This document shows, in pieces, positions 57,332 through 58,993 of a stretch of 64,000 nt of DNA. The stretch is from a virus (lineage: Duplodnaviria > Heunggongvirae > Uroviricota > Caudoviricetes). Both the position numbers and the translations under genes were made by a program. The DNA lies in the IMG/VR virus record IMGVR_UViG_3300009500_000011, positions 40,585 to 104,584 of that record. One strand, 5' to 3'. Numbering within the stretch: position 1 is the stretch's first letter; each line of letters begins with the position of its first letter. The notes below the pieces were generated by a model. That model saw only the letters and a list, made by a program, of their open reading frames with translations, did no database searches and had not been told where the DNA came from.

Positions 57332-57369
57332 CCACATAGAACCTTGTCTATTACTAGTTGAAGGTAAAT

Positions 57370-57981
57370 ATGAGTTTAAAAAAGAAGTCCAATGATGGGT
57401 CTTCCTCAAATGATTTTAATTCTGAAACATATGAATTGCTTTATTCAAAAAATATTCTTATGCTGGATAGAGAAATTACAGAGCAAATTGCTTCAGATTT
57501 AATCGGACGGATTATATTAATAAATTTATCAACTCCAAAAACTAAAAAATCAAACATAGTTTTAATGGTAAATAGTTTCGGCGGAGATTCTTATTGTGGT
57601 TTAGGGCTCGTAGATGCAATTAAGGCATCTGAAATTCCTGTAACTACTATTTGTATAGGTGTTGCAGCTTCTTGTGCTGCAATGATATTAGCGAGTGGAG
57701 CAAAACGTTTGTCGTTACCTAATGCTTCAATAATGATTCACCCACATTGGATTGAAATGGAAAGAGCATATACTCATCAAGAACTTATGACCGAAGTTAC
57801 TGAAAGCAAAAGACTTCATGAATTAAATACAAATTTTTGGAATGGTATTATACCTACAAGTAAAGGTAAAGTTACTAATTTAATGTCTAAAGATAGTTGG
57901 TTAAATCCTCAACAAGCTTTGTCATTAAATATTATTGACGAAATAGTGACTTCTACAAATGCATTGCCAAAAACAACCTAA
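57370..57981 (+). CDS. clpP: ClpP-like serine protease
   Basis: 'VNSFGG', Ser in 'AASCAA', His in 'MIHP', Asp in 'KDSWLNPQQA...IIDEI'. ATG at 57370 is the likely start. Confidence 0.88.
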   Translation: MSLKKKSNDGSSSNDFNSETYELLYSKNILMLDREITEQIASDLIGRIILINLSTPKTKKSNIVLMVNSFGGDSYCGLGLVDAIKASEIPVTTICIGVAASCAAMILASGAKRLSLPNASIMIHPHWIEMERAYTHQELMTEVTESKRLHELNTNFWNGIIPTSKGKVTNLMSKDSWLNPQQALSLNIIDEIVTSTNALPKTT

Positions 57982-57989
57982 AATTATAA

Positions 57990-58101
57990 ATGGACCCTGT
58001 GTTCCACAGCCTTACATTTAGTCCATGTACTATTTAGGTTAGAAATTCACAGCCCTAGTCGATGTGCAAATCAAGTTGACCACTTGAGCCTCGGCTAGGG
58101 T
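57990..58101 (+). ncRNA. Structured RNA element (two nested hairpins) in the infC leader
   Basis: ATGGAC/GTCCAT enclosing CTGTG/CACAG; GCCCTAGTCGA/TCGGCTAGGGT enclosing TCAAGT/ACTTGA. GC-rich relative to the genome. Confidence 0.5.
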
Positions 58102-58135
58102 ATTAATTTTTAAAATAATTTGGAGATAAATAGTC

Positions 58136-58618
58136 ATTAGTAAAGATAGCAACAAAATAAATAACGAAATTCGTTCTCGTCAAGTTTATTTGATTGATGA
58201 ATCAGGAAATAATTTAGGTATTACTGATACTTATAAAGCCATGTATATGGCTTCAAATGTGGGATTAGATTTAGTCGAAGTTGCTCAAAAAGATAATTTA
58301 CCATTATGCAAGATTCTTGACTATGGTAAATACAAATATGAACAAGCAAAAACTAAGAAATCACAACAACCTAAAAACATCGTAAAAGAACTTAAAATGA
58401 GTCCTCGTATTGATAGCCATGATATTGAAATTAAAATTAAAAAAGTAAAAGAATGGTTACAAGACGGGTGTAAAGTTTACGTTGCTATTCAGTTTCGTGG
58501 TCGTGAAAATACACATCACGAAAATGGCTATAATATTATTAATAAATTCACACCTTTAGGTAATTCGACACAGCCAAAATTAGAAGGTAATACTCTTTCA
58601 ATTTGGTTAACAAGGTAA
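58136..58618 (+). CDS. infC: Translation initiation factor IF3 with AUU start
   Basis: 'INNEIRSRQVYLIDESG', 'LDLVEV', 'CKILDYGKYKYEQ', 'KELKM' and 'FRGRE'. In-frame ATT at 58136 lies after GGAG and an in-frame TAA at 58127. Confidence 0.92.
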   Translation: MSKDSNKINNEIRSRQVYLIDESGNNLGITDTYKAMYMASNVGLDLVEVAQKDNLPLCKILDYGKYKYEQAKTKKSQQPKNIVKELKMSPRIDSHDIEIKIKKVKEWLQDGCKVYVAIQFRGRENTHHENGYNIINKFTPLGNSTQPKLEGNTLSIWLTR

Positions 58619-58624
58619 ATTGAT

Positions 58625-58993
58625 ATGTTTATTGTAGACCGTAATAAAGAAAATATTGTACTATCAATTCCTTACAATTTAGCTATGGAAGTAACAACAT
58701 CTATTTTACAGTCTGTCGTTTGTATGCTAAATGATATTCGTCTAAATAAGATGTTAATATCTAAGCAAGAACTAGAAAGAATTAATTTTTCAGTTAATAC
58801 GTTGGTTAATTTTGCGAATGAGTTAAGTCATCCAAATATGATTAGATTGGGTTATCAAGAAGTGTTGCAACATTTAATGGAAACAATATTAATTGCATAT
58901 AACAAACAAAATTTTAAACAATGTGATGATATTTTAAAGAAAATTGAAAAGTTATTAACAGAAGAAAATGAAAATTTAAATGTACAATCCTAA
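58625..58993 (+). CDS. Hypothetical protein
   Basis: 122-aa ORF in the operon. Confidence 0.55.
   Translation: MFIVDRNKENIVLSIPYNLAMEVTTSILQSVVCMLNDIRLNKMLISKQELERINFSVNTLVNFANELSHPNMIRLGYQEVLQHLMETILIAYNKQNFKQCDDILKKIEKLLTEENENLNVQS

What the first reader, a model, noticed from the sequence alone, without database searches (positions are those of the whole stretch)
58121..58618. Phage-encoded IF3 keeps the non-canonical AUU start codon
Seen: the track starts infC at TTG 58190, inside the conserved N-domain. The frame extends back only to TAA 58127. Ten nt after a GGAG SD it reads ATT AGT AAA GAT (I/M-S-K-D...INNEIR), and there is no ATG or GTG in that interval. Established: bacterial infC commonly starts with AUU, and IF3 represses initiation at such codons, giving autoregulation. 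Inference: the phage kept this feedback, so its IF3 would be made when host IF3 activity falls. That would act as a sensor keeping initiation and ribosome recycling running during infection, and would be cross-regulated by host IF3.
Basis: partly seen in the sequence, partly recalled or inferred. Interest (0 to 1): 0.7.

Follow-up and report, generated by a model that had tools for sequence, protein, structure and literature searches.

The report
Phage IF3 gene starting at AUU
A 169-kb uncultured phage carries a complete copy of the bacterial translation factor IF3 that almost certainly starts at the rare codon AUU, as bacterial IF3 genes do; most other phage IF3 genes have switched to normal start codons, so this copy probably remains under IF3's own feedback control.

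Summary
In frame between TAA 58127 and the gene caller's TTG 58190 there is no ATG, GTG or TTG. GGAG (58122-58125) lies 10 nt before ATT 58136. The TTG start would remove 11 residues of the IF3 N-domain and cut strand beta-1.

From ATT the product is a 160-aa, two-domain IF3. It passes the Pfam and TIGR00168 cut-offs and gives an AlphaFold model with pLDDT 88. The residues matching E. coli Y75 and R131 are kept.

The gene belongs to a well-supported phage clade with conserved gene order (ClpP-like, IF3, small ORF). Of eight distinct members, five have ATT and one has ATC at the homologous codon behind a Shine-Dalgarno (SD) motif. One has ATA or TTG, and one has TTG. Three of the ATT/ATC members, besides the window, have no canonical option at all.

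Elsewhere the pattern differs. About 48 of 61 IMG/VR phage infC loci and six cultured jumbo phages use ATG, GTG or TTG. About 60 of 68 mostly bacterial loci use AUU, AUA or AUC.

The AUU start is therefore well supported (about 0.85). IF3-mediated feedback is inferred only (about 0.6), and the "host-IF3 sensor" idea is untested. This scan has noted AUU-start phage IF3 genes before on other DNA. I found no paper that describes them.

The parts
58122..58125 (+). Shine-Dalgarno core GGAG, 10 nt before ATT 58136
   Evidence: Sequence. In this genome GGAG-to-ATG spacings run 4-14 nt and are mostly 10-13. Clade relatives have (A)GGAG or AGGA 7-10 nt before their AUH codon.
58127..58129 (+). In-frame TAA that closes the frame upstream of infC
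58130..58132 (+). ATA, the alternative near-cognate start (rival, judged unlikely)
   Evidence: It lies only 4 nt after GGAG. It is not conserved in relatives.
58136..58138 (+). ATT, the proposed true initiation codon of infC
   Evidence: There is no canonical start between 58127 and 58190. The homologous codon is ATT in L082/L171, L005, L007 and L008, ATC in L173 and ATA in L162. Protein conservation begins exactly at this codon.
58136..58618 (+). infC coding sequence: 160 codons plus stop, a two-domain IF3
   Evidence: Pfam IF3_N 7.6e-27 and IF3_C 9.1e-21. TIGR00168 scores 147.6 bits against a cut-off of 60. phrog_9787. Solved IF3 chains match at up to 3.5e-30. AlphaFold2 pLDDT 88.
58157..58363 (+). 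IF3 N-terminal domain (residues 8-76)
58382..58609 (+). IF3 C-terminal domain (residues 83-158). The clade shows a gap of about 5 residues after NKF relative to the other IF3s aligned.
58190..58192 (+). TTG, the start chosen by gene callers (rejected)
   Evidence: P0001, 142 aa. There is no SD before it. It lies inside strand beta-1.
58112..58175 (+). Translation initiation region, essentially unstructured
   Evidence: MFE -1.9 kcal/mol, z +0.5.
58052..58101 (+). GC-rich hairpin followed by a T-rich tract (to about 58110). It looks like a terminator for the ClpP-like gene, or is a conserved leader element. TTGAC sits in its inner loop.
   Evidence: -25.5 kcal/mol, z -4.9. Comparable branched hairpins with a TTGAC loop lie upstream of infC in L007 and L008. 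The motif is not repeated elsewhere in the genome.
57358..57981 (+). ClpP-type peptidase gene, the syntenic upstream neighbour of infC
   Evidence: Pfam CLP_protease 1.6e-30. The Ser, His and Asp motifs align with solved ClpP. The neighbour is conserved in L005-L008, L170, L171 and the P0121 contig.
58625..58993 (+). Small ORF (122 aa, no family) 6 nt after the infC stop. It is positionally conserved and overlaps or abuts infC in the relatives.

Best explanation
The gene at 58136-58618 is a phage-borne, full-length infC. Translation starts at AUU 58136, placed by the GGAG 10 nt upstream in an open, unstructured initiation region, and gives a 160-residue two-domain IF3.

IF3 destabilises 30S initiation complexes on AUU, AUA and AUC. 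Synthesis of this protein should therefore be throttled by the total IF3 activity in the infected cell, host plus phage, and should rise when that activity drops. This is the homeostatic loop known for bacterial infC.

Shown here: the gene structure, the absence of any canonical start, the intact IF3 fold and fidelity residues, and conservation of an AUH start at the homologous codon across a deep phage clade. Inferred: that initiation really uses AUU (about 0.85) and that it is IF3-repressed in vivo (about 0.6).
For: (1) There is no in-frame ATG, GTG or TTG between TAA 58127 and TTG 58190. Residues encoded in that interval, N9 and I12, are invariant in my alignments of IF3s. They belong to the Pfam IF3_N domain and to predicted strand beta-1.

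(2) The GGAG spacing of 10 nt is typical for this genome and for cultured phage infC genes.

(3) The clade is supported at 100 (SH-like) on a long stem, with tip branches of 0.22-0.54.
- ATT at the homologous codon with an SD: WIN, L082/L171, L005, L007, L008.
- ATC: L173.
- ATA or TTG: L162.
- TTG: L170.
- L008, L082 and L173 have no canonical alternative.

(4) Peptide conservation, (I)-[SL]-[KR]-[DE], begins at the ATT. The in-frame codons just before it are not conserved.

(5) The layout of AUH, then S-K-[DEQ], about 8 codons before IN.EIR is the same as in many metagenomic, apparently bacterial infC loci (for example L098, L122, L150).

(6) Y68 and R121 align with E. coli Y75 and R131 (chain 8jsg_A). 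That these are fidelity positions is from my memory of the literature.

(7) The initiation region is unstructured.

(8) IF3 autorepression through AUU or AUC is established for bacterial infC (PMC5499595, PMC5472188).

(9) infC is the only credible AUH-start candidate in the genome.
Against: There is no expression, N-terminal or ribosome-profiling data. No RNA run holds this DNA, and the phage and its host are uncultured.

ATA 58130 and even GTC 58133 cannot be excluded by sequence alone. L005 and L007 also have an in-frame ATG upstream, though without an SD.

The clade sample is small: eight distinct loci, several from the same peat-moss habitat.

Retention of AUH shows selection for a weak or discriminated start. 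It does not show feedback.

The phage IF3 has a linker about 3 residues shorter than in E. coli and G. stearothermophilus IF3, and a trimmed C-domain. Its discrimination activity is unknown.
Confidence: 0.62

Rival explanations
1. AUU 58136 is the real start, but it only sets a low, fixed translation rate or is an inherited feature. There is no meaningful IF3-dependent feedback or host-IF3 sensing during infection.
For: The feedback was not tested in any way. Two clade members (L170, perhaps L162) use UUG, and most phage infC genes use canonical starts, so feedback is clearly dispensable for phage IF3 genes in general.
Against: AUH persists across lineages about 50% identical in protein, with changes among ATT, ATC and ATA but none to ATG. 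IF3 discrimination against AUH is a general property of bacterial initiation (PMC5499595), so some repression is hard to avoid if the host has a normal IF3. The residues matching the fidelity positions are kept.
Confidence: 0.25
2. Initiation is at AUA 58130 (162 aa) or at GUC 58133, not at AUU 58136. The regulatory logic would be the same, since these are also IF3-discriminated codons.
For: ATA is in frame directly after the stop and 4 nt after GGAG. GTC lies 7 nt after GGAG, and 'GTC AT[TC]' is shared with L082 and L173. A GTC start repressed by IF3 is documented for Streptomyces sigR (PMC5472188).
Against: A 4-nt spacing is at the extreme low end for this genome. ATA is not conserved: L082's ATA lies elsewhere and has no SD, and L008, L007 and L005 have none in that place. 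The codon before the start is CTC, CCC or ACA in L007, L008 and L005, so GTC is not conserved, whereas ATT or ATC is.
Confidence: 0.08
3. The annotated TTG 58190 is the start, giving a 142-aa IF3 with a truncated N-domain.
For: Gene callers choose it (P0001). It is the first canonical codon in frame.
Against: No SD precedes it. It deletes 11 residues of IF3_N, including the invariant N9 and I12, and cuts strand beta-1. The codons upstream of it are conserved as protein across the clade. Relatives have no start at the equivalent site.
Confidence: 0.02

Closest known systems
Bacterial infC (IF3) with an AUU, AUC or AUA start and translational autoregulation (E. coli thrS-infC-rpmI-rplT; Butler et al. 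1987 and Sacerdot et al. 1996, as cited in PMC5499595 and PMC5472188)
   Same: A two-domain IF3. A non-canonical AUH start behind a good SD. The start lies about 7-8 codons before the IN.EIR motif, as in many apparently bacterial loci. The residues matching the fidelity positions are kept.
   Different: It lies on a phage genome, not in an infC-rpmI-rplT operon. It is flanked by a ClpP-like gene and an unknown small ORF. The linker is about 3 residues shorter than in the E. coli and G. stearothermophilus IF3s aligned, and the clade shows a gap of about 5 residues in the C-domain. Autoregulation is untested.
IF3 genes of cultured jumbo phages: Escherichia phage 121Q gp47, Agrobacterium phage Atu_ph07 (AUZ94813.1), Sinorhizobium phage Phosso, Yersinia phage fHe-Yen9-03 g317, Xanthomonas phage XaC1. 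Also the huge-phage IF3s of Al-Shayeb et al. 2020 (PMC7162821).
   Same: A phage-encoded IF3 homologue. GGAG lies about 10 nt before the start. The gene sits next to a Clp component.
   Different: They are annotated with, and plausibly use, ATG, GTG or TTG. They are only 27-42% identical to the window protein, lie on other branches of the tree, and sit in genomes of 350-490 kb rather than 169 kb.
Geobacillus stearothermophilus IF3 (PDB 5ME0 chain Y, 1TIF, 1TIG)
   Same: It is the best solved match, covering nearly the full length (E 3.5e-30, query residues 8-154). A short N-terminal tail precedes INEQIR.
   Different: It is a cellular protein. Its linker is longer, and its C-domain has about 5 more residues after the second helix.
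Streptomyces sigR GTC start repressed by IF3 (PMC5472188)
   Same: The same principle: a non-canonical start places a gene under IF3 control, and gene callers mis-annotate it.
   Different: A different gene and codon, and shown experimentally there.

Membership tests
Translation initiation factor IF3 (InfC; TIGR00168) | IF3_N domain (PF05198) present and complete | tested here: met
   Residues 8-76 match profile positions 1-69 of 70, E 7.6e-27, 93.7 bits against a cut-off of 26.9. This holds only if translation starts upstream of TTG 58190.
Translation initiation factor IF3 (InfC; TIGR00168) | IF3_C domain (PF00707) present | tested here: met
   Residues 83-158 match profile positions 3-83 of 86, 74.1 bits against a cut-off of 34.8. 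The model shows a beta-alpha-beta-alpha-beta-beta order.
Translation initiation factor IF3 (InfC; TIGR00168) | Equivalog-level whole-protein score | tested here: met
   TIGR00168 scores 147.6 bits against a cut-off of 60.
Translation initiation factor IF3 (InfC; TIGR00168) | Residues at the E. coli fidelity positions Y75 and R131 | tested here: met
   Y68 and R121 align with them in the alignment to 8jsg_A. The functional meaning of these positions is from my memory of the literature.
Translation initiation factor IF3 (InfC; TIGR00168) | 30S binding, subunit anti-association and start-codon discrimination activity | not testable with these tools
   Needs biochemistry or complementation.
infC-type autoregulated AUH initiation site | Non-canonical AUU, AUC or AUA initiation codon | tested here: met
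   By exclusion and conservation: there is no canonical codon in the open interval, and the AUH codon is conserved in the clade. It has not been mapped experimentally.
infC-type autoregulated AUH initiation site | Shine-Dalgarno motif at working distance | tested here: met
   GGAG at 10 nt, and 7-10 nt in the relatives.
infC-type autoregulated AUH initiation site | Repression by IF3, relieved when AUU is changed to AUG | not testable with these tools
   No experiment was possible. No RNA run holds this DNA.
infC-type autoregulated AUH initiation site | Operon context thrS-infC-rpmI-rplT | tested here: not met
   No rplT-like ORF lies downstream in the window or the clade loci. The two bacterial flanks on 'viral' contigs (L027, L043) do have one. 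Operon context is not needed for the AUU mechanism.

The most novel reading that the evidence does not exclude
The conserved ClpP-like / IF3 / small-ORF block is a host-factor replacement module. A phage Clp-type protease, or the phage Clp adaptors seen beside IF3 in other phages, would remove or disable host IF3. The resulting fall in IF3 activity would de-repress the AUU-started phage infC. A phage-specific IF3, with a shorter linker and a trimmed C-domain, would then take over start-site selection on host ribosomes. The AUU codon would be the switch that times the hand-over.
Probability: 0.08. Interest if true: 0.8.

Novelty: new member of a known kind. Interest (0 to 1): 0.45.

Why it matters
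Why phages carry IF3 is an open question. Papers on huge and jumbo phages list the gene and only guess at its role (PMC7162821, PMC7824862, PMC11895373).

The start codon is a readable clue to how the gene is controlled. Here a phage lineage has kept the AUH start that puts bacterial infC under IF3 feedback. Most phage IF3 genes in my sample have replaced it with ATG, GTG or TTG and have presumably escaped that feedback. This gives two contrasting, testable strategies: homeostatic top-up versus overproduction of IF3.

There is also a practical point. Gene callers truncate these genes. Public models of 142, 135, 123 and 115 aa exist for clade members, and a 149-aa model (P0121) probably belongs with them, so databases under-report intact phage IF3s.

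Tried and rejected
- Rfam (gathering thresholds) and ARAGORN found nothing in the window.
- blastn of the region against GenBank phages found no match.
- Sequencing runs: no RNA holder is listed. Laying the contigs of two moss-metagenome DNA runs showed identical sequence and no variants, so they say nothing about the start codon.
- Complex prediction of IF3 with the downstream small ORF gave 'no answer'. This is not evidence either way.
- Protein-atlas look-alikes of the small ORF (DUF8042, 'chaperone', score 0.86) are below the level worth trusting. A relaxed Pfam scan gave nothing.
- A DNA-pattern scan of IMG/VR for the L007/L008-type upstream hairpin found only L008's own contig.
- Hairpins with a TGAC loop are not enriched in the genome (29 found, about 33 in shuffles). 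The element upstream of infC is therefore not a general phage promoter or terminator motif.
- The phage tRNA-Met(CAT) is not an initiator type: it has a G1-C72 pair and lacks the three G-C pairs in the anticodon stem. The idea that the phage brings IF3 together with its own initiator tRNA was dropped.
- P0121's contig could not be read because no DNA was served.
- The sigma-70 promoter scan was no better than shuffles.

Full report
WHAT IS THERE

The window is part of a single 168,584-bp contig with 32% G+C. The contig is a tailed-phage genome. It encodes a baseplate wedge protein, a lysin-bearing structural protein, DNA polymerase, DnaB-like helicase and an SbcC-like nuclease, and it carries 32 tRNA genes outside the window. 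An identical 3.5-kb contig, and two DNA runs that hold the region, come from moss metagenomes.

At 58127-58618 a single frame is open. It reads TAA(58127) ATA GTC ATT(58136) AGT AAA GAT ... TAT TTG(58190) ... TAA(58616-58618). There is no in-frame ATG, GTG or TTG before 58190. GGAG is at 58122-58125. Public gene calls start at TTG 58190, giving 142 aa (P0001).

THE PROTEIN

Read from ATT, the product has 160 residues.

- It matches Pfam IF3_N (residues 8-76, profile 1-69 of 70) and IF3_C (residues 83-158), both far above their cut-offs.
- It matches the IF3 equivalog TIGR00168 at 147.6 bits against a cut-off of 60.
- It matches phrog_9787.
- It aligns over nearly its full length with solved IF3s of G. 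stearothermophilus, E. coli and T. thermophilus.
- An AlphaFold2 model has mean pLDDT 88 and shows two domains joined by a helix and linker.

TTG 58190 is residue 19. It lies inside predicted strand beta-1 (residues 16-20). Starting there would delete N9 and I12, which are invariant in my alignments. Tyr68 and Arg121 align with E. coli Tyr75 and Arg131. From memory, these are the positions of classical IF3 fidelity mutations. So the gene encodes an apparently intact IF3, and its start must lie upstream of 58160.

WHICH CODON STARTS IT

Three codons are open to consideration: ATA 58130, GTC 58133 and ATT 58136.

- Spacing. In this genome GGAG-to-ATG spacings are mostly 10-13 nt, with a range of 4-14. 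Cultured phage infC genes also have GGAG about 10 nt before their start. ATT at 10 nt fits. ATA at 4 nt is at the edge of the range.
- Structure. The initiation region 58112-58175 is unstructured, with MFE -1.9 kcal/mol and z +0.5.
- Relatives. This is the decisive evidence.

Searches of the protein collections, IMG/VR and metagenome contigs recovered a clade of eight distinct loci. They share gene order: Metallophos, ClpP-like, (optional ORF), IF3, small ORF, RNase T-like, DUF1003. Their IF3 proteins are about 50% identical. On a FastTree tree of 151 IF3s they form one group with support of 100 on a 0.46 stem, with tip branches of 0.22-0.54.

At the codon homologous to ATT 58136, 7-8 codons before the invariant Asn of IN.EIR, the loci read as follows:

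| Locus | Codon | SD and spacing | Other in-frame option |
|---|---|---|---|
| Window (= L006) | ATT | GGAG, 10 nt | none canonical |
| L082 (= L171/L172) | ATT | AGGA, 7 nt | none canonical |
| L008 | ATT | AGGAG, 7 nt | none canonical |
| L173 | ATC | GGAG, 8 nt | none canonical |
| L005 | ATT | GGAG, 10 nt | ATG upstream, no SD |
| L007 | ATT | AGGAG, 7 nt | ATG upstream, no SD |
| L162 | ATA | AGGA, 6 nt | TTG two codons later |
| L170 | TTG | AAGGA, 6 nt | start follows the stop codon directly |

Peptide conservation, (I)-[SL]-[KR]-[DE], begins exactly at this codon. The in-frame codons just before it are unrelated between loci.

A genome-wide scan for the same signature (an AUH or CUG codon, a GGAG-type SD and a lead of at least 10 codons) finds only infC and one spurious antisense frame among 274 ORFs. 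I put the ATT start at about 0.85, ATA or GTC at about 0.08, and TTG 58190 at about 0.02.

HOW UNUSUAL IS THIS AMONG PHAGES

I applied one heuristic to all loci: take the best SD-backed in-frame candidate upstream of the domain.

- Metagenome loci. Of 68 non-redundant loci, 60 are predicted to start at ATT, ATA or ATC, and 31 have no canonical option at all. I take these loci to be mostly bacterial from their protein matches and, where the contig is long enough, a downstream rplT-like ORF (18 of 79). This agrees with the literature statement that infC uses AUU or AUC throughout bacteria and is autoregulated through it (PMC5499595; PMC5472188).
- IMG/VR viral loci. Of 61 non-redundant loci, 48 are best explained by ATG, GTG or TTG. 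Most of the remainder have a canonical codon two codons downstream of the AUH codon.
- Loci that require a non-canonical start. Only L008 (ATT) and L037 (CTG) clearly do; L016 is unclear.
- Contaminants. Two apparent ATT cases (L027, L043) are bacterial infC-rpmI-rplT flanks on 'viral' contigs.
- Cultured jumbo phages. Six of them (121Q, Atu_ph07, Phosso, fHe-Yen9-03, XaC1, Vibrio 2.275.O) are annotated with ATG, GTG or TTG behind GGAG.

So phage infC genes have mostly given up the AUH start, and this ClpP-linked clade is an exception. There are caveats. The heuristic favours SD-backed codons. The metagenome set is the 80 contigs most similar to the clade profile, not a random sample of bacteria.

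MECHANISM

Established knowledge: IF3 rejects 30S complexes on non-canonical codons, so AUU- or AUC-started infC is repressed by its own product (PMC5499595, PMC5472188).

Inference for this gene: translation from AUU 58136 is limited by total IF3 activity, host plus phage, and rises when that activity falls. Three observations support it.

- The start codon varies only among ATT, ATC and ATA, or TTG in one or two lineages, and never becomes ATG, across lineages whose proteins are about 50% identical. That points to selection for a weak or discriminated start.
- The residues matching the fidelity positions are kept.
- The initiation region is open.

None of this shows feedback, which I rate at about 0.6.

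WHAT IS KNOWN

Phage-encoded IF3 is on record for huge and jumbo phages (PMC7162821, PMC7824862, PMC11895373). Those papers say the function is unknown, and none mentions the start codon. Four full-text searches found no paper on AUU starts of phage infC.

This scan has noted the same kind of thing before on other DNA. e1-1688479 is a jumbo-phage IF3 with a conserved AUU. e1-5358503 is AAGGAG-7nt-ATT opening a 166-aa IF3, which resembles my L007 and L008. e1-1832754 is a phage IF3 with a conserved UUG start. I did not test those notes. My census is independent of them and agrees with them.

VERDICT

The annotation should be corrected to 58136-58618, with an ATT start and 160 aa. This is a new, phage-borne member of a known kind of initiation site. 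The added value is the contrast with most phage IF3 genes and the conserved ClpP-IF3-small-ORF context. Interest is moderate.

Noticed in passing
window 57358-57981; loci L005-L008, L011, L170, L171; L163-L167; L012, L014, L015, L023, L024, L026, L047, L052, L058: Phage IF3 genes sit next to Clp components in several separate IF3 lineages. The neighbour is a ClpP-type peptidase, with Ser, His and Asp motifs aligned to solved ClpP, in the window's clade. It is ClpX in the Atu_ph07/Phosso group and two other branches, and ClpS in the 121Q, fHe-Yen9 and XaC1 group. The reason is unknown.
   Followed up: partly
window 58625-58993: A small ORF (122 aa, no Pfam or PHROG family) starts 6 nt after the infC stop. 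A weakly similar ORF, with a core of about 70 aa and often an acidic tail, overlaps or abuts the infC stop in L005, L007, L008, L170 and L172. It looks like a translationally coupled partner of unknown function.
   Followed up: partly
window 57982-58120: The spacer before infC is GC-rich and structured (z -3.3 for the whole region). Hairpin 58052-58101 folds at -25.5 kcal/mol and is followed by a T-rich tract. L007 and L008 have a branched hairpin in the same place. Its inner stem differs in sequence, but its loop keeps TTGAC. It could be a terminator of the ClpP-like gene, a -35 element inside a palindrome, or a leader element. In addition, 8 nt at 58029-58036 are the exact complement of 58127-58134, which lies between the SD and ATT.
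   Followed up: partly
proteins P0001, P0005, P0121, P0127, P0135 (public gene calls of clade members): Gene callers truncate these infC genes to 142, 135, 149, 123 and 115 aa by choosing internal ATG or TTG codons, so databases hold broken models of intact phage IF3s. P0005 and P0121 were judged from their protein sequences only.
   Followed up: partly
loci L027 and L043 (IMG/VR contigs 3300029755_000018 and 3300024272_004042): These 'viral' contigs carry an ordinary bacterial infC-rpmI-rplT operon (ATT start, GGAGG 9 nt upstream) near a contig end. It is probably host flank or contamination.
   Followed up: partly
genome G000:C1 121460-167528 (outside the window): ARAGORN tRNA genes. The only tRNA-Met(CAT), at 167453-167528, has a G1-C72 pair and lacks the three G-C pairs of initiator tRNAs. 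The phage therefore brings IF3 but no initiator tRNA of its own.
   Followed up: partly
locus L037 (IMG/VR 3300022719_000283, 619 kb) and L016: Another huge-phage infC has no ATG, GTG, TTG or AUH option. It has only CTG behind AGGAG at 7 nt. L016 has a long open N-terminal extension with no obvious start.
   Followed up: no
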